From a virus (Duplodnaviria > Caudoviricetes): DNA of 57,536 nucleotides. The stretch lies in the IMG/VR virus record IMGVR_UViG_3300048999_000258, positions 1-57,536 of that record; one strand, 5' to 3'. Within the stretch, counting starts at the first letter, position 1; each line of letters opens with the position of its first letter. Both the position numbers and the translations under genes were made by a program. The notes below the pieces were generated by a model. The model worked only from the letters and a program-made list of their open reading frames with translations. It did not search any database and had not been told where the DNA came from. Shown here piece after piece: positions 2,567 to 20,092 of the stretch.

Positions 2567-3871
2567 ATGGACAACAGTAAGAGACGGCCTCTGGTACGAT
2601 ATAAGCACAAGAGCGCAAAGATGACCGCTTGCACCATCTGCGCATGGCCAATCATTGAACGCGCATCTGTAATTGACGCAGGCGGAACCTTTGTGTGCAA
2701 ACAGAAAAAGTGCTTTGCAGCATATAAGACGCGCGAACATTCTGGCGTTAATCATCCGCGATACCAGCCGCCGGTAAAGTTTAATTGCGCGCACTGCGGC
2801 AAAGAGAACGAACGTCCGCGCGTCTTTGTTGAAGGGCGAGCCAACCCATGCTGCGATAACGTTTGCCGCAGGGCGTTTCAGAAGTCAGGCAAAGTGAAAC
2901 AAGTTCCGGCTAACAGCTTCATGCTGACTGACGGAGCTGTGGCAACCGCTGATAAAGTAGCAGCTATGGTGGCGGATAAAAAATCGGGCAAAACGATATG
3001 TGATGAACTCGGCATTACCAAGGGCGCATTAGTGGCATGCCTGAAGCATCACAACTTGAAGATAGAGCGCAACCTTTCCCCCAAGACGGGGAAAGATAGC
3101 CCCAAGTGGGTCGGCGAGGTGGCGTGCGCTTGTCACCACTGCGGAACAGTGCGCATGCGCAAGCCGTATGACATCAAGGGCAAGGAGCGCGTCTACTGTG
3201 ATGAGAAGTGTCAGCATGAGTATCTTAAGACGCTGAAGGGGCCTTTGAGCGGACGCTATATAGAGCCGAACAAGCTTACTTGCCACGGCTGCGGGGTGGT
3301 GTATGATGAGCCGAAAAGCTTGCACCCAGGTGAAAAAAGCAAATTTCACAATCGCAAATGTTACACAGCTTGGGCAAAAAAACAGTTCGGACCTCTTCAT
3401 CACCGATGGGTCGGGATCGGCAAATACCGTGGTGACAATTGGATTATGCAACGATTTGCTGCGGCTCAACGAGACAAGGGAATTTGTCAGCTTTGTAATA
3501 AGAAGGTAGGGTTAAATAAGGTGGACGTTCACCACATACGGCCTTTCAAATACTTCGCAAAGGAACGCAATTTTGAAGATGCGAATGCGTTATCCAACCT
3601 CGTGTGTTTTTGCAAAAGCTGCCACATGGAGGTCGAAGGACGCACGGATGCGGCAACAATTGATACATGGCGTGAACATTATGAAATCAACCGTCTTTAT
3701 CCAAGAAAGGCCACAGGACAGCTTGTAAGAAAAAATCAACGGATGGTGCTGGACTTGTACGCCAAGGGCGTGACGAAGGCATCTATACATCGTCAAACGA
3801 AGTTAAGCAGAGCGGTAATCAACGCGTGCATAGATGGACCGAGAAAGAGGCGTATGTCTACGCCTAAGTAA
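2567..3871 (+). CDS. Free-standing HNH endonuclease with multiple Zn-finger repeats and HTH segments
   Basis: AGGAG SD. Repeated CxxCG...(Y/C)C...C fingers. HNH core RDKGICQLC...VDVHHIRPF...NALSNLVCFCKSCH. AT-richer than the structural genes. Confidence 0.9.
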   Translation: MDNSKRRPLVRYKHKSAKMTACTICAWPIIERASVIDAGGTFVCKQKKCFAAYKTREHSGVNHPRYQPPVKFNCAHCGKENERPRVFVEGRANPCCDNVCRRAFQKSGKVKQVPANSFMLTDGAVATADKVAAMVADKKSGKTICDELGITKGALVACLKHHNLKIERNLSPKTGKDSPKWVGEVACACHHCGTVRMRKPYDIKGKERVYCDEKCQHEYLKTLKGPLSGRYIEPNKLTCHGCGVVYDEPKSLHPGEKSKFHNRKCYTAWAKKQFGPLHHRWVGIGKYRGDNWIMQRFAAAQRDKGICQLCNKKVGLNKVDVHHIRPFKYFAKERNFEDANALSNLVCFCKSCHMEVEGRTDAATIDTWREHYEINRLYPRKATGQLVRKNQRMVLDLYAKGVTKASIHRQTKLSRAVINACIDGPRKRRMSTPK

Positions 3872-3938: not shown

Positions 3939-5408
3939 TTATCCGTTGTTGTACGCCTGTGCTGGAAGGGACCCTACGTTACAAAATAATACGTTTCTGT
4001 TGGGCGCGTATAATTTAAAGCATAGATATGACAGGAGCAAGAATGGTAATGTTGTGCCCGCAATAGGAAGAGGCACTCTCAAGAGTGGACACAATAATTT
4101 TGCACCTATAGATTCAGGCGTCATAGTTAGTGCGAACCCATATCCAGTTCCAGGTATCGTTTTATTATAATCAACGATAGTGTTTTCGCTGATCATAGGT
4201 ATACCGTTCGCCGGGTTGCTGTTCGGCACCCGTATGGTGCGCCGTTGTGATCCGATAGCACCATTCTTAGGTGTCCTGTAAATTTCATACCACTCTACTG
4301 GGTTCGACCCTGGTGCAGGCGTCACGCCGAACTGGATTACCTGACCAGCCGTCAACGCAATAGCGCTCGTGCTGACCTGCACAGGAGCAGATTTGCCGGC
4401 AGAGTTGCATGCAATGACCCACACATAGTAATTGCCGGCATCGCTTCCTGCAAAAAGACTGTTTGCTTGCGCAGGCGTTGTCGCTTGTGTGCTGATGACA
4501 GGTGCCAGCGGTATTCCCTGTGACGAACCGACCTGCGTGAGCGGCATTAGTCCGCCATCGTCCATGAAAGGATTACCATGGAGGTTGGCAATGCCGCCTT
4601 CAATCTCAATCCCTTTCACAACTTGGCTGACGATGCCATCACTGCTGCGTGCATACGGGTCAACGCGCTGTACCGGGATGAAGGCACGCTGAATATCTGA
4701 ACGAACACGTGTACCAAACATGAAGTCGGTAATTTGTCCGTAGTTGGGCGCCGAGTGCACGACCGTGGCAGCGTTAATCAGCATATCTTGCGTCACGGGG
4801 CCACCGCGGCAGTCAATGATGTTCTCGGCGTTGGATTTCATCTCGATTTGAGTCTTGAAGCCGTCGGTCTGTAAAGCAGACAAACGTGAGTCAGACGTCA
4901 ACGCTGCCATCTCCAAGCGACGCAACATAGCCATTGTGCCGGCCAGGGTAGCCAATGCGATCGGCTCGCTGGTCAGCGTGCGCTGCAAGCTAAGCTGATG
5001 CGTTACGCCCTTCTGAATACCGATGAACTTAACGGCATCAATTCGGCGGATATAGGTCTCGTCGTCGGGTGCGGGAGCCCCACCTTCTGCGAAGAAACCT
5101 CCCTCAGGGTTTTGGCTGTAGCTAGAAATCTCAGCGTGCTGGTCAACAGCTGAGAACGTAGGCATCTTGGGCAGCAAAGGCCAAAGCTTAATGTCTTTGG
5201 CTTTGTAGGTGTTGACCTTGAGGGTCTCCTCAAGTGACTCAGTACGAATCGGAGACATATCGCCGGGCGTCGCAACGTTGGGGTTGTAAACGTTGTAGCC
5301 GCCGGTATCGGCTTTGGATAACGCGTTAGACCTCTGAAATTCAGCAACGGCTTCAGCACTAGGTGCTGCCGCCATGTTGCCAATCATCTGATGTGTGTAA
5401 ATCGACAT
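3939..5408 (-). CDS. Major capsid protein (SPO1/Twort-like type)
   Basis: 489 aa directly after protease and scaffold. SPIRTESLEETLKVNTY...IKLW and FFAEGG.P...D..Y.R....VKFIG patterns. N-terminal LSK-A putative maturation site. Confidence 0.88.
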   Translation of the reverse strand: MSIYTHQMIGNMAAAPSAEAVAEFQRSNALSKADTGGYNVYNPNVATPGDMSPIRTESLEETLKVNTYKAKDIKLWPLLPKMPTFSAVDQHAEISSYSQNPEGGFFAEGGAPAPDDETYIRRIDAVKFIGIQKGVTHQLSLQRTLTSEPIALATLAGTMAMLRRLEMAALTSDSRLSALQTDGFKTQIEMKSNAENIIDCRGGPVTQDMLINAATVVHSAPNYGQITDFMFGTRVRSDIQRAFIPVQRVDPYARSSDGIVSQVVKGIEIEGGIANLHGNPFMDDGGLMPLTQVGSSQGIPLAPVISTQATTPAQANSLFAGSDAGNYYVWVIACNSAGKSAPVQVSTSAIALTAGQVIQFGVTPAPGSNPVEWYEIYRTPKNGAIGSQRRTIRVPNSNPANGIPMISENTIVDYNKTIPGTGYGFALTMTPESIGAKLLCPLLRVPLPIAGTTLPFLLLSYLCFKLYAPNRNVLFCNVGSLPAQAYNNG

Positions 5409-5463
5409 GTGTTTTCCTTATCCGAGTCGCCTCGGGTGTTGTGTGGCAGGTGGGTTGTGTTTT

Positions 5464-6453
5464 TTAGCCAGCTTCGTTTTGCGAACGCAGGTAGCTTTTG
5501 ACCTCTTGGGCGACCTGGACAGGTAGCTCGCGAGCGCTCTCGTACATGGCCATGGCCAGTGCGAAGTCGTAGCCGCTCTTACTCATGCCATCGCGACCTT
5601 CCTTGTGGCTGAGCTGCGCTAGGTCATTCAGCGCGCTTTTGATGAGCTGCGGGCTGACGTGCTCTTGCTGCGGTTGTCCACCAAAGCTTTTCTCAAGCTT
5701 AGCAACAGCTCCGCGGGCCTTGGGTGCACGAGCAGGCTGCTCCATCTCAATGGCGCGGTTTTCGACCAGAGATTTGATGAGTTCGCCCATCTCGACCAAG
5801 ACTTTTGCCTGGTAGAGATTATGCTCGTGCATGCTTTTCTTAAGGCCGTCGACTTCTTCACCGACCATGCCCAAGGATTTCTTCAGACCTTCGTGGTGGC
5901 TCGTTAGGAAATCAGATATTTCAACGGTGTCGCCGACTTCATCGGTGAACGCATCGGTTGCCGACTTAGCAAGCGACTCTACCGGCTCAGCTGCGGTGGT
6001 GCCGTCAATCAGACCGAGCAACTCTGTGCGCTCACTCTTAGACATCTTGGCGCCCGAGTGCGCCTTGGCGAACAGCACGTCGCGGCGGCTGTCGTCGTCT
6101 TCAGTCTCGTACTTGTCACGCAGATACTGCAGCGACTTATCTAGGCTGGCTACAGAGTAGCGCTCTGATTTGTCCATGTCGTCGTCTCCGTCGTCGTCCT
6201 CGTCCTCGTCCATGTCCTCGTCGTCGTCAGCCGCTTTGCTGGCCTTCTTCTTCGATTTCATCCACGGCAATTTCTTGCCCTTCTTTTTGCCCTTAGAGCC
6301 TTTGTCATCATCGGCGTCGGCATCGTCTTTGCCGCCGTCGCTGCACGCCATGTCTTCGCCGTCGTCTTCGTCATCATCGTCTTTTTTAAGTTTGGCTTTG
6401 GAACGAGCCTTCATCATCTCGTCTTCGGCCAACTCTTTTGTTTTTGCCGCCAT
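5464..6453 (-). CDS. Scaffold-like acidic head protein
   Basis: Lies between protease and capsid. D/E/K-rich low-complexity N-terminus, coiled-coil C-terminus, many K-S/A motifs. Confidence 0.65.
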   Translation of the reverse strand: MAAKTKELAEDEMMKARSKAKLKKDDDDEDDGEDMACSDGGKDDADADDDKGSKGKKKGKKLPWMKSKKKASKAADDDEDMDEDEDDDGDDDMDKSERYSVASLDKSLQYLRDKYETEDDDSRRDVLFAKAHSGAKMSKSERTELLGLIDGTTAAEPVESLAKSATDAFTDEVGDTVEISDFLTSHHEGLKKSLGMVGEEVDGLKKSMHEHNLYQAKVLVEMGELIKSLVENRAIEMEQPARAPKARGAVAKLEKSFGGQPQQEHVSPQLIKSALNDLAQLSHKEGRDGMSKSGYDFALAMAMYESARELPVQVAQEVKSYLRSQNEAG

Positions 6454-6477
6454 GGGTGGGGCCTTTCCTGGTTTAGG

Positions 6478-7488
6478 TTAAATAAGACCTGCTGTTTGCA
6501 GGGCTTTCGAGTGGGTGAGCAGTCGGGTGGCGTCTGCTTTGGATAGGCCCTTCACGCGGGCCTGGAGGTAGGAGACGGCGTCTTTTGTTTGTAGCGACTT
6601 GCTGACTTGCGACTTTGTGCTGTCAACAATTCGGGCAGCAGAGCGGGTGCTGAGCCCTGGCGCGCGCGACTGCACGTAGGCAATAGCCTCACTGCGTTTG
6701 AGCGTCTTGACGCTCTGCTTTTTCTTTTTGCCCTTGCGGCGCAGTATTTCGCCGCCAGCATTGTTGTGCAGGTCTGCCTCGAGCGCTTCTTTCGCGATGA
6801 TACGGCCAGCGGTCATGCCTGTGCCTGTGGCGTTGGCGAGCGGCACGGGTGGGCCTTCGCCGCCCATGGCTTTGACTGTTTCTTCTTCGCGGGCTTCGGC
6901 TTCTACAGCAGCAAGCGAACGTGCTAATACTTCCAGGCGGGCATCTGTGTTAACAGGCGCATTTGTAAGGGCAACGTTTCTAATTTTTGCTTTAGCGATT
7001 GTTTTATTGCCTAAACCTGTACGCTTAATAATGTTCCCCTCAACAGAAAACCCAAGATTGCGCCCAGTGCCCTGCAACGACTGCGCAAGGTCCCAAATCT
7101 GGTCACACGCCGGGCGATTGAGCAGGTAACCTTCAACCCACGTCCCGTTGCACGTCGCCAGGCTACCGTTTGGTAGCAAATCGCCGGCCTTAAATTGCAC
7201 GAGCGAGTTTTTATCGCCGTAGCCTAGAACATCCGCAGTTTTTTGCGAGTGGTTGTCGTTGAACCAGCCGTGCTCAAAGAAATCACCCCAGTCGAGGCCA
7301 TCCTGCAAGATACGCTCACCCTGACGGTCAATATTGTCTGTTGAGCAAATGCCGCCAAAGCGGCGCTTCTGGCCCTCTGGCGCATCCGCCTTTTCAAACA
7401 CATGCATCGGCAGCGCGAAGTCGAACGCAGTCTTGTCTGCGGGCGCGCTGGGCACGGTGTCTGTAAGGCTATGGTTGACCTGTTGCAC
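6478..7488 (-). CDS. Prohead (capsid maturation) protease, HK97/herpes-type fold
   Basis: GICSTDNIDRQGERILQDGLD...GWFNDNH, LGFSVEG (catalytic Ser), NVALTNAPVN. Start reassigned to GTG 7488 with GGAG SD 6 nt upstream. Confidence 0.9.
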   Translation of the reverse strand: MQQVNHSLTDTVPSAPADKTAFDFALPMHVFEKADAPEGQKRRFGGICSTDNIDRQGERILQDGLDWGDFFEHGWFNDNHSQKTADVLGYGDKNSLVQFKAGDLLPNGSLATCNGTWVEGYLLNRPACDQIWDLAQSLQGTGRNLGFSVEGNIIKRTGLGNKTIAKAKIRNVALTNAPVNTDARLEVLARSLAAVEAEAREEETVKAMGGEGPPVPLANATGTGMTAGRIIAKEALEADLHNNAGGEILRRKGKKKKQSVKTLKRSEAIAYVQSRAPGLSTRSAARIVDSTKSQVSKSLQTKDAVSYLQARVKGLSKADATRLLTHSKALQTAGLI

Positions 7489-7511
7489 GTTGTTCTCCGT
7501 TGCTTGAAACG

Positions 7512-7653
7512 AAAAAAGGGCGTCAGGTTTGGGCTGCCTCGCGCAAGACTGCGCAACAATGCCACTACCTAAACGCCCCAACGTGGTGTCATCACCATCA
7601 CGGGCCTACGCCAATACACCTCTAAAGGATGCGAGATTGACGGTGCTTGTCAA
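7512..7653 (-). promoter_or_regulatory. Candidate promoter and structured leader for the protease-scaffold-capsid genes
   Basis: TTGACA at 7653-7648 inside a TTGAC-N7-GTCAA palindrome; -10 is weak (CATCCT, 16-nt spacer). Long hairpin 7578-7518 followed by U6 before the SD. Confidence 0.45.
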
Positions 7654-7715
7654 ATAACCTGCTAATCGGCTTAAGATAAAAACTATTTAATTAGGGCATT
7701 GTCCAAGACGGACAT

Positions 7716-7922
7716 CTATCGCTTTATGCGGATAACGTGGCTATGGGTGGGCGCAAGCGGCACCTGGTCAGACAGCTGTAGCGGCAGCGTCACATCTGCC
7801 TTACACCAATAGCAACGGCTTTGGCAGCGCTCACCGTCAAAGATGACCGGCCCGTCGGTCCGTATCCGCGTCTGTGAGCCGCTCTTCTGTAGCAGCTTTT
7901 CTCTGCAATGGGGGCACTTCAT
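7716..7922 (-). CDS. Small Zn-ribbon protein
   Basis: CPHC...CYWC. Start overlaps the upstream stop (ATGA). Confidence 0.7.
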   Translation of the reverse strand: MKCPHCREKLLQKSGSQTRIRTDGPVIFDGERCQSRCYWCKADVTLPLQLSDQVPLAPTHSHVIRIKR

Positions 7923-10864
7923 GTGACTGGCTCGCGTTTTGGCTTGGCTTTGGTTTCAAGTATTTCGGCCACCTGCGCGTCAGCGGGCTTGTTTGCGTCG
8001 TCGCGCTTATCACCTAGACCATAAAAAGCAGCCGCGTTATCCGCGCCCACTTTGGCAAGCTTGGCCGCCGCGTCGTTTGCATCCTCGCGGTCTTTGATGC
8101 GCTTTTTATTACGCTTAATAATCAGCTTGAGGTCTTTGGCGGGAATAACCGCCGTCGTCACATCTAACTTGCGCGGCGGCATCTGCGGCGTGTTGCGGTA
8201 GATGTCGTTGGCGTCTTTGTCAAAACGCAACGGCGTACTTTGGTCAAAGACACCAGGGTCCTTGAATGCTTCAGTGATGCCCCCGATATCCTGGCGTCTC
8301 TTAGGGACGTTGGGCCGGAAACGCACGCTGTCATCCACGGCGGGGTTGCGGCTGAGCACTAGTTTCTCGTGCTGCACATCCGCCCGTTGCGCGTGTAGTG
8401 CGCTGCGCTCTTGGCCATGCAAGTAGTCCTGGAATGCGCTTAAACCGATGGCGTCCATGCTCTCGATGCCGCCAGCTGGGTAGCAACTTTGATAAGCCAG
8501 GGCCGCATCAAGTGGCTTTGCAAATCCCATAGCCGCAAGGTCCGGGCTCTGTGCGCCGTGCACGATATACACCTCGCCCGCCGTGCCATCAGGCCCTATG
8601 AGCGTGTTAAGATGCAATGCAGGGTGAGGCACGCTGCCTGATGCAATCCATCTGCCCTGTTCACTTTGCTGCGCCCACTTGGCGACATCGACAGGCAGCC
8701 CAAAAGCACTAACCTCGCTGATGCCTTGCTCCATGGCCTTGTACATCATGCTTTTGTGCGCCATCTCTGCCTCGAGGGTTTTCGGGTTCGTTAGGATGCC
8801 CCGCGTGCCAATCATGCTCATCTGATTCTTGTCGTTAAAGCCTGCTCCTTTGGGTATTGCGACCAGGATGCATCGGCAGTTATGCGTGACAAACGTCTCC
8901 GCCACATAGCTCTCATCTTCCTCAACCGTAAGATTATACACCATGCCGCAGTACGGCTTGCGCGCCACCTTGCTTATTACAGCGGCCTGCGCGACATCCT
9001 TGCCATGGGCAATGGGGATACTTTTGGGGCCAGGGTTGCAGGCCAAATCGACATAGACGCCGTGATGCGCCTTCATTTCTACGACAACCAATCCCTCGAC
9101 CAGATAGCGGCCACGTTGGGCGTCACAAGCGCCATCTTGCGCCTCGCCGTGCGTCGGGCGGGACTTGTAGCGCGTCGGCGCAACGGCCTTAACCTGCACC
9201 CAGAGACGGTCGCGGGACTGTTTCATGACAGAGGCATGCCCATTGTCGCGATTGCCAAGATGCTCGGCGTTAGCCGTCATGTCGTGGGCCGAGCCTTGGC
9301 TGCATCCAGCCGCCCGCGCGTCCAGGGCGACCGCGTGTTGCGTGCCGGCCACAAGCCGCTCAAAGCCGATTTGGTCCTGCGCATGCATTTCGACGACGGC
9401 CTCTCGCTGTACGCTATCGCCCGCGACCTCGGCGTCAGCCGCAATCGACTGCGACCAATTTTTCTCCAGGCGGGCAAACGGCCCAGGGGCGCATCGGCTG
9501 CGCAGTTGCTGCGCCATATGAACGCCTACGCGCCTGAAGATGAGACGCTCGCAGGCATCATCAATCCACTGAGCATCCCCCAGGACAAGCGTATCGCCGC
9601 CAGCGATGGACGGCGTAGATGCCCGCGCAAATCGCAGCCTGCCACTTAGTGAGGGCACGCACGGGCCGTCACTAAGCCTGTCCCGGTGGTAGACAAAGCC
9701 TTCGTGCATAAAGACGCCGTCGCCCAGTACAAGCGCTACAAAGGGGCTGTCTGGCCCCTGGCCGTGTAGCACCTGCACGTAGTCTTCGTATTTACTGCCC
9801 AGGTGCGGGTCGTCTTTGACCGAAGGGCGGCTGGTGTCGCGCACGACGTGCTCGCCCGCCTTAAACTCGCCCGCAGCCCGCCAGCTACGGCCATTGTAGA
9901 GCAGGTGATTGGGTGTGACACGCAGGGTCATCCATCCGGAGTCTATTTCGCACAGCTCACCTCTATACGCCTGGCACCATACGTGCGTCACCTTGCGCAG
10001 GCGCTGCTTGTGTGTCCATACGTAGTCGCCAGGATAGACGTGCTCGATGGCCCTTGGCCCAAGGCTCGTGGTAATCATCGTGCCGGGCGGAACGCAGTTC
10101 GGATGTAGCGGGCCCGCCGTCGCCATATACTCGTTCGCCTTGCGGCCCTGATTGGTGCCCGTGGCCTGCAAGGCAGATAGCTTGAAGATACGCGGTGCAC
10201 CGTCTGGCCCCGTGTAGATGGCCGAGCATGGGTCACAGCAGTGTGGTGCACTTCGCTTAGCGACCAGGGCATCTGGCCCATTTTGCTCAGATATGGCCCG
10301 AGCCTGCCCCAGCTGCATGGCGGTCTGCGTCTCTGTCACTGCAATCCGATTAAGGTCGCGCGTCCAATCGCCCGTGGCGTGGCCCAAATCGCTTTTGAGC
10401 TGTTTGATGCTCTGGCGCTTGGCGATGTTTTGCGCAGTCTTATCCCGGATGACCGCCTCAAACTTGCGCCGCAACTCTGCGTCCGCCTCAATAAGAATTT
10501 GCCCGGTGGCCTTATCAAGCTTGTTGCCAAGGCCCTGGCACAAAGCGCCCGCCTGCTGGGATGCTAGCGTCACGGCGTGCTGTTCGGCGGATGTCAGCGG
10601 TTGCGGATTGGTTTTGACGTACGCTTTGAACTGCGGGTAGGTCATCTTGTCTGCCGCAGACTGTCCGAGAATTTGCACAATGCGCCCGTACACGTAGGCG
10701 TCCTGCAGCGTGCTGATGTCGACGTCAACTAGGCCCTTGTCTTTGAGCGCCTGTAGGATTTGTGGCGCCACGGCCTGCGGGCCATACTGGCTGACGGCGA
10801 AGGCATTGTGACGGTCCAGGATGATTTGGCGGATTTCCTGAAGCTGCTTAGCGGTCAAAAGCAT
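7919..10864 (-). CDS. MuF/SPP1 gp7-like minor head protein containing an intein, with C-terminal extension
   Basis: DWTRDLNRIAVTETQTA, CCDPC, and GPLHPN|CRC once the intein is removed (typical MuF P.HP.CRC motif). Confidence 0.88.
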   Translation of the reverse strand: MLLTAKQLQEIRQIILDRHNAFAVSQYGPQAVAPQILQALKDKGLVDVDISTLQDAYVYGRIVQILGQSAADKMTYPQFKAYVKTNPQPLTSAEQHAVTLASQQAGALCQGLGNKLDKATGQILIEADAELRRKFEAVIRDKTAQNIAKRQSIKQLKSDLGHATGDWTRDLNRIAVTETQTAMQLGQARAISEQNGPDALVAKRSAPHCCDPCSAIYTGPDGAPRIFKLSALQATGTNQGRKANEYMATAGPLHPNCVPPGTMITTSLGPRAIEHVYPGDYVWTHKQRLRKVTHVWCQAYRGELCEIDSGWMTLRVTPNHLLYNGRSWRAAGEFKAGEHVVRDTSRPSVKDDPHLGSKYEDYVQVLHGQGPDSPFVALVLGDGVFMHEGFVYHRDRLSDGPCVPSLSGRLRFARASTPSIAGGDTLVLGDAQWIDDACERLIFRRVGVHMAQQLRSRCAPGPFARLEKNWSQSIAADAEVAGDSVQREAVVEMHAQDQIGFERLVAGTQHAVALDARAAGCSQGSAHDMTANAEHLGNRDNGHASVMKQSRDRLWVQVKAVAPTRYKSRPTHGEAQDGACDAQRGRYLVEGLVVVEMKAHHGVYVDLACNPGPKSIPIAHGKDVAQAAVISKVARKPYCGMVYNLTVEEDESYVAETFVTHNCRCILVAIPKGAGFNDKNQMSMIGTRGILTNPKTLEAEMAHKSMMYKAMEQGISEVSAFGLPVDVAKWAQQSEQGRWIASGSVPHPALHLNTLIGPDGTAGEVYIVHGAQSPDLAAMGFAKPLDAALAYQSCYPAGGIESMDAIGLSAFQDYLHGQERSALHAQRADVQHEKLVLSRNPAVDDSVRFRPNVPKRRQDIGGITEAFKDPGVFDQSTPLRFDKDANDIYRNTPQMPPRKLDVTTAVIPAKDLKLIIKRNKKRIKDREDANDAAAKLAKVGADNAAAFYGLGDKRDDANKPADAQVAEILETKAKPKREPVT
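8879..10096 (-). mobile_element. Intein, 406 aa (residues 257-662), inserted at HPN|CRC
   Basis: Block A CVPPGTMITT, block B LRVTPNHLLY, block F VYNLTVEEDESYVA, block G FVTHN followed by Cys+1. Confidence 0.93.
9005..9649 (+). CDS. Triple helix-turn-helix protein encoded antisense inside the intein
   Basis: Three repeats: HFYDNQSLDQIAATLGVTSAILRLAV, FHDRGMPIVAIAKMLGVSRHVVGRAL, HFDDGLSLYAIARDLGVSRNRLRPIF. Frame is open from 8882; ATG 9005 is the likeliest start but has no clear SD. Confidence 0.75.
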   Translation: MGNGDTFGARVAGQIDIDAVMRLHFYDNQSLDQIAATLGVTSAILRLAVRRAGLVARRRNGLNLHPETVAGLFHDRGMPIVAIAKMLGVSRHVVGRALAASSRPRVQGDRVLRAGHKPLKADLVLRMHFDDGLSLYAIARDLGVSRNRLRPIFLQAGKRPRGASAAQLLRHMNAYAPEDETLAGIINPLSIPQDKRIAASDGRRRCPRKSQPAT

Positions 10865-10882
10865 CGGGTGCCCTCGGTGGTC

Positions 10883-11125
10883 TTAGCTTTGCTTGAGCAC
10901 TCTGTCGATGTCGGCGTTGATGTCGCCTATCATCTTTTCGTAGGCGGCCATATTGCACTGGCGCAAATGCTCCAGCACGGGTGAATCAAAAGCGGTCAAG
11001 ACGGATTTGTCTGCGCCGGCCAATCCTTTTGCCTTGAGCAGATGGGCACCTTGCGATTGAGCATCTGCCGCTATTGATGCCAGACGATGCGCTGCTTTTT
11101 GCGCCAATGAGCCGTCGTCACGCAT
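10883..11125 (-). CDS. Hypothetical head-module protein
   Basis: Fills the gap between fibre and MuF genes, same strand, 2-nt spacing to the upstream stop. Confidence 0.65.
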   Translation of the reverse strand: MRDDGSLAQKAAHRLASIAADAQSQGAHLLKAKGLAGADKSVLTAFDSPVLEHLRQCNMAAYEKMIGDINADIDRVLKQS

Positions 11126-11127
11126 GG

Positions 11128-14100
11128 CTATGCGCCCATTTCAATGTAGGCCCACATTTCTATTTTTATTTCGCCGGCTGCAGAGTTTGAAGTGGTAAAG
11201 GTCAACACATCATTGGCCGCAAAAGCATAGGTGCCTTTCGCGTAGGAAATTGTGTAGGGCACGCCAGTGTTGTTTGTGCCTGGGCTCCAAGAAATGAGGT
11301 TTGAACTCGAACCATTTTTGATGACGTTTAGGGTGCTAGTGCCAGTGCTTGAGCCATATTGCACCAAGCAAAGTCCGACCACGGAACCCGCAAAAGTGCA
11401 GCCAAAATGCAAATCCGACGCCGCTGATGTGCCAGCGTTTGTATCAAATTGAGTCCGCGTAACCGTCCATACGGCGTTCGCCGCATAAGAGGTGCGCCAG
11501 TAACTACCCTCGACAATTGCTTTGAAGCCCTGAGTTGAAACGAAGCTCGGTGTGCCTGCGGCGGTCGATGATGTGACCGTACCCTGCGTTGCCATAGTGC
11601 TTTGCACAGTGACGGGCGTTGATAACGTAAGAGCAGTGCCAGTACCCTGCACCTGCACAACGCCAGACCCAGAGGCGCCGGCAATTAACGCCCAAGAGTT
11701 TACGGTTGGAAAGTACATCCCCGTACTGCCGCCGCTTTGATTTGAGATTGCCGGCGAAGATGCGCTGCCGTTCGTTGCTCTAATATACTGCCCTTGGACG
11801 CTTCCGTTAAATGATGCGATACCGGATTGAAGCGAAAGCTGGGTCGTGCCCGCAAGTGTAAAATTGATGCCGACCGGCGTCGAGGTGCTATACCAAATAC
11901 CAGAACCAGGGCTGCTGCCGCTTAGGTTGATGACCGGCGAGGTGGCGCTACCTCCGGCGCTGGCAACAATATTTCCGTTAATCGTAGCAGACGCGGCGAC
12001 TACCGCCCCCGCGAAAGTCGCGGTTCCCGTAGCGCCAAAAGCTCCGGGAATCGTCACACCAGTCTTCGACCAGGTCATCGAATCGGTGCCATTAACAGAC
12101 ATCGAAGTGACTGCCGCCGAAGTGCTGCTTGTTTTAAGATAAAGCCCGCTATCCGTATTCGCGGTAAAGGAAAAGGCGGGTGTCGCAAGGCTGCCGCCGC
12201 TTGCCGTATAGGTAGGTGAACTACCAAGTGCTGCGGTTGTAAGGCTTGTTCCGTCGCCAAACGTTAATTTGCCACTCGTGCCAAGCGTAATATTTGGTGC
12301 GGTGATGAGGCCTGTTGCGCTTAATGCTCCCGTACTTGCACTGCCCGTGACGGTCAAAGTCGCGCTCGCCGTCAGCGCGCCTGTCACCGTAAGCGTACCA
12401 GGTACGCTTGCGCCCGTCTTGCTTAACGTCAGCGCATCAGATGCATTAACGCTCAAACTCAACACAGCGGCTGATGCACTTGCCGTTTTTAAATAAGCGC
12501 CCGTGTCCGTGTTGTTTGAAAACGTAAAGGCAGGCAGCGCCGTCGTGCCGTTGCTTGTGGCGGTAAACTTACTAAGCTGCCCGGCGCTCGTCGCGTTAAA
12601 AGCAGTGGTCTGAACGGTGTTGTCTGCAAATGTCAGGCCCGTAGACGTTGTTAGCGAAATCCCGGTAAACGTTGCGAGGCCAGCGCTGCTCACTGTACCA
12701 ACCGTCGTCGTCGTATAGTTCGGCGCGGTGCCGCCGTTTTGCAGCACTAAAATGCTACCGGACAGCGCCTGCATCGTAAACGGTACAGTATTGGCGTTAA
12801 AACCGTATTTTGCCGTTGTGCTACTTAGAGCCAGCAGCGTATTGCCGCCGCCAGAAAACGTGTAGCTGCCCGAGGAGAATGCGGTGACAAAAGCTGTGTT
12901 CGGTGAATTTCCCGTAGCAGAGCTGTAGCCGGGGTTGCTCGAGCGGATGAACGGCACGCCCTGGTAGTTAATTAAAATGTTGCCCAGGCTATCTGAAGAC
13001 AGCCCGGATGCAGGGTAGTTGTTGCCGTCTCCGAACGTGCCCGGCAAAGTTACGTTCGACACGTTGTAGCCGGTTGCATTGACGCTTTTGCTACTCGGCA
13101 CCTGCGTGGTTGCAATAAGCGGCGTAGATATGTTTCCTGACGCTGTGAGCAACCCTGTGATGGTTGATGTGCCAGCAATCGTCTCGTTGCTCGAAAGCGC
13201 AAGCGTCGTGCCGGAGATGGCCGCTAACGTGCTTGCGCCGCTGACGCCTAAGGTGCCAGGCACGGTGATGCCGCCCTTGATGACATTAAGCGCCAGTATC
13301 CCGTTGGCACTAAACCCGAGCACAGCAGCTGTAGCCGACGCTGTCGGCAGATACATGCCCGTGTCAGGCTGCGCGACAAACGAATAGCTTGGCGCGGCAG
13401 CGCTACCATTTGAGCTGACAGTGTGGCCCAAGGACGTGGTCGTGCCGCTGTTGGTCAGCGATGTGACGCTAAGCGCGGCGAGCGTAGTTGTGCCCTGTAC
13501 TTGGGCGTTGCCTGTGACGTTGAGGCTACTGAGCGTTGTGGCGCCAAAATTGGTAGCGCCTCCGACGGTTAGCGTGCCGGGGATGGTGGCGCCTGTTTTG
13601 CTGAGCGCTAGGGCCTGTGTCGCGTTGACACTAAATCCTAGGACCGCCGCGCTGCTTGACGCCGTCGCCAGATATTGCCCGGTGTCTGTCTGGCTGCTGA
13701 ATGTAAAAGCAGGGGCCACAGCCGTGCCATTGCTGCCTGCTGCGAAGACGTTGTTTGCTGCGTTGGCCGCAGTCGCCTGTGTCGTACCATCGGGAAATGT
13801 AATCAGGCCGCCGCTGCCAGATAGAGTCAGGCTAGGCACGGTCAACAGGCCACCGAAGGAGCCTGCGCCCGATGCTGTTAGCGTGGCGACGCTAGCTGAT
13901 GCAGCAGTGAGTGCCGCCAAAGTGCTTGCTCCCGCCACGCTCAGCGTCCCAGGCACAGACGCGCCTGCCTTGCTTAGCGCCAAGGCCTGCACGCCGTTGA
14001 CCGCCAATGCCAAAATCGCAGCGCTAGCCGAGGTGGCAGCGAGGTAGGCGCCGGTGTCTTTTTGCGCGGTAAAGCTAAAGCTGGGCGCAGACGCCTGGCC

Positions 14101-14778
14101 CGCGATGCTAGAGAAATAACCCGCCGCTGTGCCTGAGCCTGTGTTGATAAAAGACGCCGCCGTCAGCGCGCCGGTCGACACCGCGCCCAGGGCTGTCTGC
14201 CCGGCAACGGTCAATGTGCCTGGGATACTGGCGCCAGAGGACGTCAGCGCCAATGCCTGGGTGGCGTTGACGACCAGGGCCATGACCGCAGCATTCGCCG
14301 AGGCGGTTGGCAGATACACGCCGGAGTCGATTTGATTGTTGAAAGTGAAGGCAGGATGAGACAGCGAGCCTGGGGCGCTGACGACTGTAGAGGCGCTGGC
14401 GACGCCGCTGCTTGTCAGCGCTGTCACGGTGGCGGTGTTGCCCGTGAGATTGCCGTTGCCATCAATTTGAAACTGCGTGCCGGTGCTGTTTTGCAGCACA
14501 AGGGCCGTCGCGTTGCTGTCATTGGCGACGGGCGCAAGCACCAGGCTGTTGGCGGCCAAATCGCTGGGCAGCACCTGCTGCGTCACAGGACCCACAAGGC
14601 TCTGGTATGACGTCTGCCATCCGGTGGCCGTCTTGGCCGGATACAGGCGGGCGTTGAGCGTATCGACGTAGATGTCGCCAACGTTGCCAAGCGTATTGGC
14701 CGGCGCACCGCTGCCTGACAGGGTAGACAGGCCTGATGGACCCACGAGGTTTGCGACGGCGTTCCAGGTCAATGACAT
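11128..14778 (-). CDS. Long fibre-like virion protein (1216 aa) with internal repeats
   Basis: S/T/G/A-rich. Six clear copies of P(A/S)(F/Y)(T/S)F....D(T/S)G.YL......A.......N...........G...PG, two degenerate copies, and three (I/L)TF.D.T...TA motifs. Confidence 0.8.
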   Translation of the reverse strand: MSLTWNAVANLVGPSGLSTLSGSGAPANTLGNVGDIYVDTLNARLYPAKTATGWQTSYQSLVGPVTQQVLPSDLAANSLVLAPVANDSNATALVLQNSTGTQFQIDGNGNLTGNTATVTALTSSGVASASTVVSAPGSLSHPAFTFNNQIDSGVYLPTASANAAVMALVVNATQALALTSSGASIPGTLTVAGQTALGAVSTGALTAASFINTGSGTAAGYFSSIAGQASAPSFSFTAQKDTGAYLAATSASAAILALAVNGVQALALSKAGASVPGTLSVAGASTLAALTAASASVATLTASGAGSFGGLLTVPSLTLSGSGGLITFPDGTTQATAANAANNVFAAGSNGTAVAPAFTFSSQTDTGQYLATASSSAAVLGFSVNATQALALSKTGATIPGTLTVGGATNFGATTLSSLNVTGNAQVQGTTTLAALSVTSLTNSGTTTSLGHTVSSNGSAAAPSYSFVAQPDTGMYLPTASATAAVLGFSANGILALNVIKGGITVPGTLGVSGASTLAAISGTTLALSSNETIAGTSTITGLLTASGNISTPLIATTQVPSSKSVNATGYNVSNVTLPGTFGDGNNYPASGLSSDSLGNILINYQGVPFIRSSNPGYSSATGNSPNTAFVTAFSSGSYTFSGGGNTLLALSSTTAKYGFNANTVPFTMQALSGSILVLQNGGTAPNYTTTTVGTVSSAGLATFTGISLTTSTGLTFADNTVQTTAFNATSAGQLSKFTATSNGTTALPAFTFSNNTDTGAYLKTASASAAVLSLSVNASDALTLSKTGASVPGTLTVTGALTASATLTVTGSASTGALSATGLITAPNITLGTSGKLTFGDGTSLTTAALGSSPTYTASGGSLATPAFSFTANTDSGLYLKTSSTSAAVTSMSVNGTDSMTWSKTGVTIPGAFGATGTATFAGAVVAASATINGNIVASAGGSATSPVINLSGSSPGSGIWYSTSTPVGINFTLAGTTQLSLQSGIASFNGSVQGQYIRATNGSASSPAISNQSGGSTGMYFPTVNSWALIAGASGSGVVQVQGTGTALTLSTPVTVQSTMATQGTVTSSTAAGTPSFVSTQGFKAIVEGSYWRTSYAANAVWTVTRTQFDTNAGTSAASDLHFGCTFAGSVVGLCLVQYGSSTGTSTLNVIKNGSSSNLISWSPGTNNTGVPYTISYAKGTYAFAANDVLTFTTSNSAAGEIKIEMWAYIEMGA

Positions 14779-14829
14779 CGGGGGTCCTTCTCAGGTGTTC
14801 GGTACAGAGATAAGTGGGCGATTCCCAGC

Positions 14830-15342
14830 TTAGCTCACGGTGGCTGTCTGAAGGTTGTAGAGCTGGCCTGAGACGTTATCGAGGTAGTAGTCATTGGTCG
14901 CGGCGTCTGACGGTGTGTTGCTGCTGTCAGGCGCACCGCTACCATTGTAGATTTGCGTGCCGCGCAGACCGGCGGGACCCTGGATAGAGTAGCCTTGGTC
15001 CGCCCAGGCGCCGCTTACGTACTTATACACCTCGCCCGCACCGCCAGAGGTGGCAGGGGCAAGATTGACATAAAGGTCGCCGTTATTGGCGGCCATCGTC
15101 GGCGCACCGCTACCACTGTAAAAAGACGCACCGTTGACGCCTGTGATACCCATGCCGCCGCGCAGATACGCGCCCGTTGAAGGCCAGCCAGACGCTGTGC
15201 GCTGGTAGAAGTAGAAGGTGTCTGTCGCAAAAAAACAGTCTCCAACAAGGCCCAACGTGGCTGCGGGTGAACCGTTACCAAAGTAGATTTGTGAGCCTGC
15301 GGGGCCGCGCAAATTAGCGGTTGCTTGCCAAGAAAGTGCCAT
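14830..15342 (-). CDS. Short fibre/adaptor-like protein with GSGAP...D.Y repeats
   Basis: Three G.G.P.....(G/N)D.(Y/F) repeats. N-terminus MALSWQATANLRGPAG resembles MSLTWNAVANLVGPSG of the long fibre. Confidence 0.7.
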   Translation of the reverse strand: MALSWQATANLRGPAGSQIYFGNGSPAATLGLVGDCFFATDTFYFYQRTASGWPSTGAYLRGGMGITGVNGASFYSGSGAPTMAANNGDLYVNLAPATSGGAGEVYKYVSGAWADQGYSIQGPAGLRGTQIYNGSGAPDSSNTPSDAATNDYYLDNVSGQLYNLQTATVS

Positions 15343-15362
15343 GGGGATGTCTCCGGTGAGAA

Positions 15363-16085
15363 CTAAGGTTCGAGGGTGTAGAGCACGCCGCTGACCACAT
15401 CGATGTAGAGGTCGCCTGAGTTTGCGGTGGGGTGCTGCGTCAAATCCGGCGGCCCCTCGCCCTCAAAGAATTGCTGCGCCTCTTGGGTGGGTGCTGCGAT
15501 GCTGCGTCCTGGAGTAGGCCACACACCATCGGCCTTGGGCCCATAAATGGTCAGCGTCGCGACGTCGATATAGCTCTGGCCGTCGCCGCCCTCTGTATCT
15601 GTTGGTGCGCCCGTGCCGCTGATGACTTCGGCTAGGATAGGCACGCCGTCGACAACAGCGCCGATGACCAGTGGCAGGTTGACGAAGCGTGTATCACCTG
15701 CGACAGGGTCGCCCCACACGACGAACAGGCCGCGCGCGGCAGTATCTGATGGCGCTGTAATCTGCACAGACGTCACAAGACCCTCAAAAAACATACGGGC
15801 CTTGGTGCCGAGCTTCTGGCTGGCTCGCATCAATTGCATCGGCGTCGAGCCATTGATGGAAATCTGGCAGTCTGCGTCTAGGCGCAGATAAAAGCCCAGG
15901 CAGTAGCCCAAGGTGCCCATGCTTAAAAATTGCGCCGTGCCTGCCTTGATGGCGATGCGGCCGCTGTTTTCATTCTGATAGGCATCGACGATGACGCCAG
16001 CTTCGTCACTAAGCGGGCCAAAGGTCGTCACCTGCTGGGCTGTGTCCTCGCTAAGCTGTGGTGAGACGGTGTAGACCAGGCGCAT
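15363..16085 (-). CDS. Virion structural protein with two C-terminal G.G.P...G..YIDV repeats
   Basis: GTGAPTDTEGGDGQSYIDV and GEGPPDL...NSGDLYIDVVSGVLY. Directly follows the portal. Confidence 0.65.
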   Translation of the reverse strand: MRLVYTVSPQLSEDTAQQVTTFGPLSDEAGVIVDAYQNENSGRIAIKAGTAQFLSMGTLGYCLGFYLRLDADCQISINGSTPMQLMRASQKLGTKARMFFEGLVTSVQITAPSDTAARGLFVVWGDPVAGDTRFVNLPLVIGAVVDGVPILAEVISGTGAPTDTEGGDGQSYIDVATLTIYGPKADGVWPTPGRSIAAPTQEAQQFFEGEGPPDLTQHPTANSGDLYIDVVSGVLYTLEP

Positions 16086-16086
16086 A

Positions 16087-17790: not shown

Positions 17791-17860
17791 CGAGTCCCTT
17801 GAAGCGGTAGCAATCTAAGCAAGGCGCAAGCCCGTGTGGCCCGCGCCTATCAACCTGCCT

Positions 17861-20088: not shown

Positions 20089-20092
20089 TCTG

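What the first reader, a model, noticed from the sequence alone, without database searches (positions are those of the whole stretch)
8879..10096. Intein carrying a triple-HTH gene on the opposite strand instead of an in-frame homing endonuclease
Seen: the MuF gene has a 406-aa intein with intact splicing blocks (C1, TPNH, VYNL, HN|C). Where an endonuclease normally sits, the intein frame reads like antisense filler. The codon-aligned + strand (9005-9649) encodes three clear HTH repeats, and both strands stay stop-free for over 600 nt. Known: tandem HTH arrays of this kind occur in phage homing endonucleases and regulators, and splicing removes whatever lies between blocks B and F. Inference: the intein is a neutral vehicle for an independently expressed antisense passenger, either an inverted homing-endonuclease remnant or a regulator hidden in a virion gene. 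No nuclease domain is recognisable after the HTHs, although PEDETLAGIINPLSIPQ faintly resembles the start of a DUF559/Vsr-like domain. Alternate-frame endonucleases in phage inteins have precedent, so the novelty needs a literature check.
Basis: partly seen in the sequence, partly recalled or inferred. Interest (0 to 1): 0.88.

Follow-up and report, generated by a model that had tools for sequence, protein, structure and literature searches.

The report
Antisense HTH gene inside a phage intein
A phage head-assembly gene carries a self-splicing intein, and the middle of that intein encodes, on the opposite DNA strand, a conserved DNA-binding protein with no nuclease, which is an unusual version of a recently described arrangement.

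Summary
The MuF-like gene (7919-10864, minus strand) contains a 406-residue class-1 intein (8879-10096). All its splicing residues are intact, and intein-less alleles confirm its boundaries. The codon-aligned + strand encodes three confident HTH units (Pfam Sigma70_r4 41 bits; phmmer 8e-14; AlphaFold pLDDT 88-96) plus a degenerate fourth.

Amino-acid changes in three homologous inteins fall mostly on intein-frame codon position 1, which is the + frame wobble position (34:2 for position 1 versus 2, against 24:22 elsewhere). So the + frame is the one under purifying selection across 9053-9481. The intein-frame reading of that stretch is filler that is kept free of stops.

Intein residues 346-461 are not filler. 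They are conserved in the intein frame and have no match to any known family.

I found no nuclease domain. However, 16 of the 150 closest HTH arrays are fused to HNH or HNH-like domains. This suggests the DNA-binding module of a former homing endonuclease, now kept without its nuclease.

Antisense endonuclease genes in inteins, including minor-capsid inteins, are already described (Gosselin et al. 2025 preprint). This case is a new variant, not a new kind. Expression and splicing are untested.

The parts
7919..10864 (-). MuF-like minor capsid (head morphogenesis) gene, 981 aa including the intein
   Evidence: tblastn finds MuF-like/minor capsid genes in 26 phage records. It lies in a minus-strand head module of terminase, portal, protease and major head genes.
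10097..10864 (-). N-extein (residues 1-256), ends ...GPLHPN
   Evidence: 98% identical to P0003 and 56-57% to P0004/P0005.
8879..10096 (-). Class-1 intein, 406 residues (257-662)
   Evidence: Pfam Intein_splicing and Hint_2 above their cut-offs. Intein-less alleles are contiguous across the site. GC is 0.61-0.66 against 0.53-0.58 in the flanks.
9830..10096 (-). Hint N-terminal splicing part (residues 257-345): Cys257, block B TPNH 317-320
   Evidence: AlphaFold pLDDT 54-74 with only 4 sequences in the alignment.
9482..9829 (-). In-frame conserved segment of unknown nature ('domain X', residues 346-461), with motifs PF.AL...D.V..GFVY, GP.VPSL.G.LRF, SI.GG..L.L, W.DD...L.F.R
   Evidence: 45-48% identical to the distant homologs, with 50 invariant columns of 132. 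Its substitutions are not + frame-silent. No Pfam, PDB or hhalign match. The ESM Atlas lead is weak.
9053..9481 (-). Intein-frame filler (residues 462-604), the antisense of the three HTH units, kept free of stop codons
   Evidence: AlphaFold pLDDT 20-26. Single-step substitutions at positions 1:2:3 are 34:2:2, 50:14:4 and 44:9:4. P=0.003 for being open by chance.
8879..9052 (-). Hint C-terminal splicing part (residues 605-662): VYNLTVEEDESY...THN, followed by Cys663
   Evidence: pLDDT 57-75 at intein residues 371-393.
9065..9649 (+). Antisense ORF for the tandem-HTH protein (194 aa from ATG 9065; alternative starts ATG 9005 and ATG 8882; stop TAG 9647-9649)
   Evidence: ATG 9065 and ATG 9005 are antisense to invariant His600 and His620. 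No Shine-Dalgarno or promoter-like site was seen.
9071..9184 (+). HTH unit 1
   Evidence: Pfam Sigma70_r4_2 at P0002 residues 61-92. Helices 11-18 and 22-31, pLDDT about 90. Repeat alignment.
9194..9319 (+). HTH unit 2
   Evidence: Pfam HTH_23, HTH_38 and HTH_7 at P0002 residues 113-140. Helices 46-55, 60-67 and 71-80, pLDDT 88-93.
9359..9481 (+). HTH unit 3
   Evidence: Pfam Sigma70_r4 at P0002 residues 164-191. Helices 101-110, 115-122 and 126-135, pLDDT 92-96.
9482..9646 (+). C-terminal tail of the + ORF: a degenerate fourth HTH repeat that overlaps domain X on the other strand
   Evidence: It aligns with the fourth repeat of relatives. pLDDT 49-67. No clear + frame selection. No Pfam match even when read through the stops as X.
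7919..8878 (-). C-extein (residues 663-981), begins CRCILVAIPKGAGF
   Evidence: Intein-less alleles read CQCQMIRVPEGWGF at this point.

Best explanation
The MuF-like minor capsid gene carries a class-1 intein. The central 430 nt of the intein (9053-9481) are the antisense of a + strand gene for a tandem HTH DNA-binding protein with three intact sigma-70-region-4-like units and a decayed fourth.

Shown: the + frame is the frame under purifying selection there. The intein frame over the same bases is unstructured filler whose only visible constraint is to stay free of stops. This lets the ribosome read through, and protein splicing (inferred from the intact catalytic residues) then removes the filler from MuF.

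Inferred: the array is the DNA-binding module of a free-standing homing endonuclease of the [HTH]n-nuclease type. Relatives with C-terminal HNH domains exist. The endonuclease entered the endonuclease slot of an intein in the antisense orientation, as proposed for other antisense-endonuclease inteins. The nuclease part was lost before the four known alleles diverged.

Because the array has stayed under selection since then, it probably now works as a nuclease-less sequence-specific DNA binder. It could be a regulator or a targeting factor. It is sheltered from deletion because it lies inside an element that must stay in frame within an essential virion gene.
For: Intein: Pfam hits above their cut-offs, invariant catalytic residues, and intein-less alleles with the same neighbouring genes.

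HTH gene: 5 Pfam HTH families above their cut-offs. 159 phmmer hits at E<=1e-3, best 8.4e-14. The repeats align repeat for repeat with array proteins. AlphaFold gives a mean pLDDT of 76.7, with the three units at 88-96, against 20-26 for the intein frame of the same DNA. There are 36 BFVD structure matches at E<=1e-3, and the named ones include endonucleases.

Selection on the + frame, from substitutions versus homologs classed with the window's own codons:
- In residues 462-604, 33 of 43 (P0003), 48 of 91 (P0004) and 42 of 90 (P0005) can leave the + residue unchanged.
- Outside 406-620 the figures are 16 of 62, 73 of 417 and 58 of 335. Fisher p = 4e-7, 2e-11 and 4e-8.
- 0 of 5000 composition-preserving shuffles reach the observed counts in any of 6 tests.
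- Position 1 versus position 2 is 34:2 inside against 24:22 outside for P0003.
- In real DNA of a relative (run X2), 34 of the 40 displayed differences in the flanks lie at intein-frame position 3, as expected for ordinary minus-strand coding.

Openness of the intein frame: P=0.003 by chance.

Endonuclease link: 3 of the 150 best hits carry an HNH_3 domain (P0038 46.1 bits, cut-off 24.8). 13 more carry a Cys-rich HNH-like domain. PHROG HNH-endonuclease families match the array.

Precedent: antisense endonuclease genes in inteins, including minor capsid inteins, and Barsten gp15 at the same site.
Against: - No expression evidence: no RNA holder is listed, no + strand promoter-like site lies in 8600-10100, and no obvious ribosome-binding site precedes any candidate start.
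- Selection was inferred from protein alignments plus the window's codons, not from homolog DNA. I could not obtain that DNA. Changes at + frame position 1 that are silent in the intein frame are invisible to this test.
- The four alleles amount to about two independent comparisons: P0003 is close to the window, and P0004 is close to P0005.
- The endonuclease origin rests on only 16 of 150 relatives. For 13 of those the HNH call is sub-threshold or absent: one piece scored 20.1 bits against a cut-off of 21.4, the other gave no HNH hit, and whole P0115 gave none. The other 134 listed hits have no detected match to these two domains. Only 19 listed hits were scanned against family libraries, including 3 of the 16, and in 5 of those 19 scans only the best 25 families were displayed.
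- No nuclease was found in the + ORF or in its read-through.
- Residues 346-461 are conserved in the intein frame and remain unexplained, so the interior is not a simple passenger slot.
Confidence: 0.62

Rival explanations
1. The element is still an active homing system split over two strands or two genes. The antisense HTH array supplies target recognition. The nuclease is supplied either by the conserved in-frame segment of the intein (residues 346-461, released by splicing) or by a separate phage nuclease such as the HNH protein at 2567-3871.
For: Residues 346-461 are conserved in the intein frame with invariant His, Asp and Arg residues. By eye there is a PFVALVLGDG stretch that recalls LAGLIDADG block C; this resemblance is recalled, not tested. 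One HNH gene lies in the record (PF01844 29.9 bits; 24.9 bits). Intein presence is patchy among MuF relatives.
Against: The in-frame segment has no Pfam, PDB-sequence or hhalign match to a nuclease or to the Barsten antisense LAGLIDADG protein. Its pLDDT is 26-39. Gly-Asp-Gly is not kept in the homologs (KDG, HDA). The HNH protein shows no similarity to the array, and nothing links the two. Intein and extein divergences are similar (40% against 56%/32% for P0004), which fits vertical descent rather than recent homing.
Confidence: 0.15
2. The + ORF is a dead relic. It would be either an inverted former in-frame DNA-binding or endonuclease region, or a decayed antisense endonuclease gene. It is no longer expressed, and its HTH signal is a fossil.
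For: There is no nuclease and the fourth repeat is degenerate. No promoter or ribosome-binding signal was found. The homing-cycle model predicts decay once an intein is fixed (preprint section 15). Codon alignment of the two frames is what an in-frame inversion would give.
Against: Position 2 changes are strongly depleted relative to intein-frame position 1 changes, even between the closely related P0001 and P0003 (34:2). This requires continuing purifying selection on the + frame, because a relic would show about 1:1. No inverted repeats flank the segment beyond 10-15 nt matches. The + ORF is intact over 194-255 codons.
Confidence: 0.12
3. The finding is a chance antisense ORF in GC-rich DNA, or an assembly artefact.
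For: Long antisense ORFs occur elsewhere in the window: codon-aligned antisense runs of 87-212 codons in 8 other genes, and other ORFs of 150 aa or more nested on the opposite strand.
Against: HTH homology at 8e-14 against 1.84 billion proteins and a confident fold. The same architecture appears in three other alleles from other sources. An 18-kb contig of run X1 covers the stretch without differences, though X1 may be the source sample. Run X2, from another study, holds a diverged copy.
Confidence: 0.02

Closest known systems
Non-canonical inteins with antisense homing endonuclease genes (Gosselin, Arsenault & Gogarten, bioRxiv 10.1101/2025.01.02.630785; earlier Gorbalenya 1998 and Gogarten 2002, as cited there)
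   Same: A second ORF lies on the antisense strand between the splicing blocks. The in-frame reading of that region has no recognisable structure. Minor capsid proteins are among the hosts and there carry only non-canonical inteins. [quoted passage not shown]
   Different: Their antisense ORFs carry a LAGLIDADG or VSR-like nuclease. Here no nuclease is detectable and only the HTH array is kept, under purifying selection. Their hosts are actinobacteriophages. This is a soil virus whose distant allele P0005 is named by its source as from an Oxalobacteraceae MAG.
Gordonia phage Barsten gp15 (minor capsid protein, NC_055856.1)
   Same: An intein at the homologous MuF site (...NC|...VHN|CRC) with homologous splicing blocks (YNFAVDEDESY against YNLTVEEDESY), and an unannotated ORF on the antisense strand of its interior.
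   Different: The Barsten antisense ORF (L007 3062-3682, 206 aa) shows an FIDGEG LAGLIDADG-type motif by eye, although Pfam gave no hit. It is not an HTH array. The Barsten intein is shorter and lacks the conserved in-frame segment.
EDxHD / VSR-like homing endonucleases, prototype I-Bth0305I (Taylor et al. 2011, PMC3239194, passages read)
   Same: N-terminal repeated HTH-type (NUMOD 2) DNA-binding motifs in a phage homing endonuclease. Members are found free-standing, in introns and between split-intein halves.
   Different: The defining C-terminal Vsr-like domain with the EDxHD motif is absent. There is no DUF559 match, and EDETL at the candidate place is part of a decayed HTH repeat.
HTH-array-HNH proteins from metagenomes (P0038, P0049, P0165; and 13 with a Cys-rich HNH-like domain, such as P0018, P0020, P0023)
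   Same: The same repeat type, LxRLYxxEGLSLxxIAxxLGVSxxxVxxxLxxxGIxxR, in tandem. They are among the best sequence matches, ranked 2, 4 and 7.
   Different: They end in a nuclease domain. The window's ORF ends in a decayed repeat and two stop codons.
In-frame HTH-like accessory domains of endonuclease-containing inteins (TliVMA, PI-TkoII; Beyer et al. 2022, PMC8966425, passages read)
   Same: HTH-type DNA-binding modules associated with an intein's endonuclease region.
   Different: Those are translated in the intein frame as part of the intein. Here the HTH units are readable only on the opposite strand.
Fractured genes: split inteins separated by a free-standing endonuclease gene (Dassa et al. 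2009, known to me only through)
   Same: A free-standing endonuclease-type gene lodged in the endonuclease slot of an intein.
   Different: There the host gene and intein are split into two ORFs. Here the intein frame stays open across the passenger in all 4 alleles.

Membership tests
Class-1 intein (Hint fold) | N-terminal Cys/Ser nucleophile and block B TxxH | tested here: met
   Cys257 and Thr317...His320 are invariant in 4 of 4 alleles. Hint_2 scores 32.0 bits against a cut-off of 28.4.
Class-1 intein (Hint fold) | C-terminal His-Asn followed by a Cys/Ser/Thr +1 extein residue | tested here: met
   His661, Asn662 and Cys663 are invariant. Intein_splicing scores 37.3 bits against a cut-off of 35.8.
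Class-1 intein (Hint fold) | In-frame insertion relative to intein-less alleles of the host gene | tested here: met
   L002-L006 MuF homologs lack residues 257-662 and read HPNCQC/HSNCAC across the site.
Class-1 intein (Hint fold) | Protein splicing activity | not testable with these tools
   Inferred only from intact catalytic residues and from the need for MuF in a virion module.
Intein with antisense homing endonuclease (non-canonical intein of Gosselin et al.) | A second ORF on the antisense strand between the splicing blocks, with an unstructured in-frame reading | tested here: met
   The + ORF is 8882/9065-9649. The intein-frame pLDDT is 20-26 over the same DNA.
Intein with antisense homing endonuclease (non-canonical intein of Gosselin et al.) | The antisense ORF carries a recognisable endonuclease domain (LAGLIDADG or VSR-like) | tested here: not met
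   All Pfam matches above their cut-offs are HTH families, and no nuclease family appears among the 20 matches at E<=1. The tail and its read-through give 0 families. The record has no HNH_3 or DUF559 match, and its only HNH match lies elsewhere.
EDxHD / VSR-like homing endonuclease | C-terminal Vsr-fold domain with the E-D-x-H-D catalytic motif | tested here: not met
   No DUF559 match. No PDB sequence match below E=0.37. EDETL lies in a decayed HTH repeat.
EDxHD / VSR-like homing endonuclease | N-terminal repeated HTH (NUMOD-type) DNA-binding motifs | tested here: inconclusive
   Tandem HTH repeats are present. No NUMOD-specific model was compared, so only general HTH families were tested.
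HTH-array-HNH endonuclease | Tandem sigma-70-r4-like HTH repeats | tested here: met
   Sigma70_r4 scores 41.4 bits against a cut-off of 24.1. The repeats align in register with P0038 and others.
HTH-array-HNH endonuclease | C-terminal HNH domain | tested here: not met
   Present in P0038 (HNH_3 46.1 bits). Absent from the window's ORF.
Cbp1-type CRISPR repeat-binding protein | NCBIfam NF040595 at its cut-off | tested here: not met
   23.2 bits against a cut-off of 140. The Foldseek match to 2lvs has E=0.14.
LAGLIDADG endonuclease (for in-frame residues 346-461) | Profile or fold match to a LAGLIDADG domain | tested here: not met
   0 Pfam families. The PDB profile search gives only FtsZ at E=0.15. 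hhalign against the Barsten antisense ORF gives probability 0.2. Gly-Asp-Gly is not conserved.

The most novel reading that the evidence does not exclude
The intein is a two-strand composite element. The intein frame encodes the splicing domain plus a conserved domain of unknown family (residues 346-461), and the opposite strand encodes its DNA-targeting HTH array. After splicing, the two products would act together on DNA as a split homing endonuclease or a split regulator, so one stretch of a virion gene would yield three functional polypeptides from two strands.
Probability: 0.12. Interest if true: 0.85.

Novelty: new variant of a known kind. Interest (0 to 1): 0.55.

Why it matters
Inteins with a gene on the opposite strand were noted in 1998 and were surveyed only in a 2025 preprint. 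Gene callers miss them because they do not allow fully nested antisense genes.

This case adds three things:
- Evidence from substitution patterns that the antisense frame, not the intein frame, is the selected one. That evidence comes from protein sequences alone, so the method can be reused wherever homolog DNA is missing.
- An antisense passenger that has kept only its DNA-binding array. This would be an intermediate or end state of the homing cycle that current models do not describe, since they predict rapid decay of the whole antisense ORF.
- An extension of the phenomenon beyond actinobacteriophages to soil phages likely to infect Proteobacteria.

If the array proves to be a regulator, it would be an example of a selfish element's module being domesticated while still lodged in an essential structural gene.

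Tried and rejected
DNA of the homologous inteins (P0003-P0005):
- Scans of metagenome contigs, genome contigs and viral contigs with the intein alignment found none.
- A scan with the + protein found none.
- So codon-level dN/dS could not be run.

Relatives of the + ORF:
- The word-based search found none.
- tblastn against 50,697 phage records found none.
- The records of 5 intein-less relatives, all fragments, held none.
- The window's own record holds only the ORF itself.

Sequencing runs:
- No RNA holder is listed.
- Laying contigs of 4 runs showed a diverged copy in X2, but only 40 of 125 differences were displayed. None of the 40 lies in 8867-10042, so the interior could not be scored from DNA.
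- X2 has no cover at 9564-9833.

Other leads that failed or stayed weak:
- GC by codon position is only weakly reversed in the interior: GC1 0.716 against GC3 0.684. It is not decisive.
- Vsr/DUF559 lead rejected.
- An HNH remnant in the read-through of the + frame beyond 9649 was considered. It was rejected because substitutions there are never + frame-silent (0 keepable in residues 356-400 for P0004) and Pfam finds nothing.
- LAGLIDADG identity of the in-frame segment is not supported.
- The ESM Atlas lead to PP2C_2 scored 0.94 but shared only 141 of 256 features, so I treat it as chance.
- No further homologs of that segment were found.
- PDB fold search of the HTH model gave nothing at E<=1e-3.
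- Inverted repeats that could mark an invertible segment: only 10-27 nt imperfect pairs.
- The hairpin at the + stop codon has z=-1.57, and 17 of 200 shuffles fold as well.
- No terminator-like site was found, and the only promoter-like site is on the minus strand.

Tools and literature:
- Literature searches for an HTH-only antisense ORF in an intein found none: which returned 0 papers. Gorbalenya 1998, Gogarten 2002 and Dassa 2009 were not in the library and are cited only as quoted.
- The supplements of the preprint were closed.

Full report
WHAT IS THERE.

The window is a 57.5-kb linear virus record, estimated 39% complete. Positions 3939-22149 hold a minus-strand head module: terminase large subunit, portal, the gene in question, head maturation protease and major head protein.

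The gene at 7919-10864 (-) encodes 981 residues. Its first 257 residues match MuF-like/minor capsid proteins in 26 phage records. Residues 257-662 (window 8879-10096) are an intein:
- Pfam Intein_splicing scores 37.3 bits (cut-off 35.8) and Hint_2 32.0 bits (cut-off 28.4).
- Cys257, Thr317-x-x-His320, His661-Asn662 and the +1 Cys663 are invariant in all 4 known alleles.
- Five related MuF genes in IMG/VR contigs lack the insert. Where I read the junction (L003, L005, L006) they run HPNCQC.../HSNCAC... straight across the site, and L006 shows the same downstream zinc-ribbon gene and protease.
- The intein is richer in G+C (0.61-0.66) than the flanking extein DNA (0.53-0.58), as expected for an acquired element.

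THE + STRAND ORF.

An ORF runs on the + strand from 8882 to 9649 (255 codons), codon-aligned with the intein frame.
- Five Pfam HTH families exceed their curated cut-offs, led by Sigma70_r4 at 41.4 bits against 24.1. The matches fall in three places.
- An exhaustive phmmer search of 1.84 billion representatives gives 159 proteins at E<=1e-3, 6 at E<=1e-10, and a best of 8.4e-14. For the ten best hits, all Pfam families displayed at E<=1e-4 are DNA-binding or HTH-type, and no nuclease family appears among them. For four of the ten, only the best 25 families were shown.
- Aligned with 22 of those hits, the ORF matches repeat for repeat a unit of about 48 residues, LxRLYxxEGLSLxxIAxxLGVSxxxVxxxLxxxGIxxR.
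- AlphaFold with that alignment gives a mean pLDDT of 76.7. The three units score 88-96 and the tail (residues 140-194) 49-67.
- The same DNA read in the intein frame scores 20-26, while the Hint parts score 54-75 even with only 4 sequences.
- Foldseek finds 36 viral models at E<=1e-3. The named ones include a LAGLIDADG-family protein, a Burkholderia phage endonuclease, a 'DNA mismatch endonuclease', Mor and GcrA. Nothing in the PDB reaches E<=1e-3.

WHICH FRAME IS SELECTED.

I could not obtain homolog DNA. Instead I used the three homologous inteins found as proteins at the same MuF site: P0003 (81% identical in the intein), P0004 (40%) and P0005 (38%).

For every amino-acid difference I took the window's real codon. 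I asked which codon position must change, and whether some codon for the homolog's residue would leave the antisense residue unchanged.
- In intein residues 462-604 (window 9053-9481), single-step changes at intein-frame positions 1:2:3 are 34:2:2 (P0003), 50:14:4 (P0004) and 44:9:4 (P0005). Outside 406-620 they are 24:22:5, 105:82:20 and 86:68:15.
- Position 1 of the intein frame is the wobble position of the + frame, and position 2 is shared by both frames. Free change at position 1 combined with constraint at position 2 fits purifying selection on the + frame only.
- Differences that could be silent in the + frame number 33 of 43, 48 of 91 and 42 of 90 inside. Outside they number 16 of 62, 73 of 417 and 58 of 335. 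Fisher p = 4e-7, 2e-11 and 4e-8.
- 0 of 5000 composition-preserving shuffles reach the observed counts in any of six tests.
- As a calibration on real DNA, a diverged copy in run X2 differs from the window at 40 displayed places in the flanks. 34 of these are intein-frame position 3. The 85 undisplayed differences, which include the interior, could not be seen.

Caveats: P0003 is close to the window and P0004 is close to P0005, so there are about two independent comparisons. Changes that are silent in the intein frame are invisible to this test.

KEEPING BOTH FRAMES OPEN.

With the codon usage of eight long genes of the window, TTA/CTA make up 20.5% of Leu codons and TCA 15.5% of Ser codons. 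A + gene with 20 Leu and 7 Ser would then avoid every antisense stop with P=0.003. The codon-aligned antisense run in this gene is 284 codons, against 87-212 in the eight others. The passenger's higher G+C weakens this figure somewhat.

The + start is unresolved. ATG 9065 and ATG 9005 are each antisense to a His codon that is invariant in the homologs. + frame selection becomes visible only from about 9065-9080. No ribosome-binding or promoter-like signal was found.

NOT ALL OF THE INTERIOR IS FILLER.

Residues 346-461 (window 9482-9829) are 45-48% identical to the distant alleles, with 50 invariant columns of 132. Their substitutions are not + frame-silent. This in-frame segment has no match in Pfam, PDB sequences (best FtsZ, E=0.15) or the Barsten antisense protein (hhalign probability 0.2). 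The ESM Atlas lead is weak, and no further homologs exist. By eye, PFVALVLGDG recalls LAGLIDADG block C, but the Gly-Asp-Gly is KDG/HDA in the homologs. I leave this segment unexplained.

NO NUCLEASE, BUT ENDONUCLEASE KIN.

No nuclease family appears among the ORF's Pfam matches, and every match above its cut-off is an HTH family. The tail, read through its two stops as X, has none. The record has no HNH_3 or DUF559 match. Its one HNH match lies in an unrelated + strand ORF at 2567-3871.

Among the 150 listed relatives of the array:
- 3 carry the HNH_3 domain of P0038 (46.1 bits, cut-off 24.8).
- 13 carry a Cys-rich domain, CxxCG..IHRKDG..LNPxEW..LCxxCH..VH. One of the two pieces of it that I tested scores just under the Pfam HNH cut-off (20.1 against 21.4) and the other gives no HNH hit.

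PHROG families annotated as HNH endonuclease also match the array (2e-7). I-Bth0305I-type (EDxHD) endonucleases likewise combine N-terminal HTH-type repeats with a C-terminal nuclease (passages).

WHAT IS KNOWN.

The preprint by Gosselin, Arsenault and Gogarten reports 63 non-canonical inteins among 784 actinobacteriophage inteins. I read the abstract, section 15 and passages of sections 3, 8, 14 and 28.
- The non-canonical types include LAGLIDADG and VSR-like endonucleases encoded on the antisense strand.
- Minor capsid inteins are exclusively non-canonical.
- In-frame interiors have no recognisable structure.
- The proposed model is that a free-standing endonuclease gene invaded the intein.
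- The authors credit Gorbalenya 1998 and Gogarten 2002 for the first antisense LAGLIDADG cases.

I confirmed one case directly. Gordonia phage Barsten gp15 has an intein at the homologous site, with an unannotated 206-aa antisense ORF bearing an FIDGEG motif. So the architecture is known. What I did not find in print is an antisense passenger reduced to an HTH array and still under selection.

MECHANISM.

Shown:
- an intact class-1 intein at a confirmed insertion site;
- a + strand tandem-HTH coding sequence under purifying selection;
- an intein-frame filler that is kept open.

Inferred:
- the precursor is translated through the filler and spliced;
- the + gene is transcribed against the late operon and translated into a DNA-binding protein of 194-214 residues;
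- it descends from an [HTH]n-nuclease homing endonuclease that entered in the antisense orientation and lost its nuclease before the four alleles diverged. All four alleles have 403-406-residue inteins with no room for a nuclease.

Intein and extein divergences are similar: 40% against 56%/32% for P0004. That fits vertical descent, under which an endonuclease is expected to decay. The persistence of selection on the array therefore argues for a retained function as a DNA binder, either a regulator or a targeting factor.

The main rival (0.15) is a split system in which the conserved in-frame segment or a separate nuclease provides cleavage. A dead relic (0.12) is contradicted by the 34:2 ratio between close alleles. 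Chance or artefact (0.02) is excluded.

VERDICT.

This is a new variant of a known kind, with interest 0.55.

Noticed in passing
window 2567-3871 (+): A 434-aa + strand ORF with an HNH domain (PF01844, 29.9 bits in the six-frame search, 24.9 bits on the protein; residues 307-354). It sits next to the minus-strand major head gene. It may be a free-standing or packaging-associated HNH endonuclease. It has no similarity to the HTH array.
   Followed up: partly
window 9482-9829 (-): An in-frame intein segment (residues 346-461) conserved in all 4 alleles, with no match to any family, structure or further homolog.
   Followed up: yes
window 7716-7922 (-); L006 4764-5069 (+): A small Cys-rich (CxxC...CxxC) 68-aa ORF overlaps the MuF stop. 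A 101-aa counterpart that shares its N-terminal motifs lies at the same place after the intein-less MuF gene of L006. It has no PHROG match.
   Followed up: partly
L007 3062-3682 (-) (Gordonia phage Barsten, NC_055856.1): A 206-aa antisense ORF with an FIDGEG LAGLIDADG-type motif inside the gp15 intein. None of the 6 features listed for this stretch of the GenBank record covers it. Pfam gave no hit at E<=10.
   Followed up: partly
protein P0006 (1308 aa): By eye, this MuF-like protein appears to carry two inteins of the same family in one chain...ACFIAGTMIETQEG...SVYNLTVEEDESYFANNVAVHNC and ...WCLPAGAMIATALG...TVYNFSVEEDESYIANGIVNHNC. Both have interiors that look like filler.
   Followed up: no
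window 9645-9676: A 15-nt imperfect inverted repeat with a 2-nt spacer lies exactly over the two + frame stop codons. The fold energy is not unusual (z=-1.57; 17 of 200 shuffles fold as well).
   Followed up: yes
window 9390-9444: Short pieces (33-52 nt, 3-10 mismatches) of otherwise unrelated contigs in all four runs X1-X4 lie on the core of HTH unit 3. The DNA here resembles HTH-coding sequence that is common in GC-rich soil organisms.
   Followed up: no
window 11128-14778 (-): A 1216-aa ORF between MuF and the portal region. It is built of many repeats of a Gly/Ala/Ser/Thr-rich unit (...ALALSK.GA.IPGTLTV.G...). It was not analysed.
   Followed up: no
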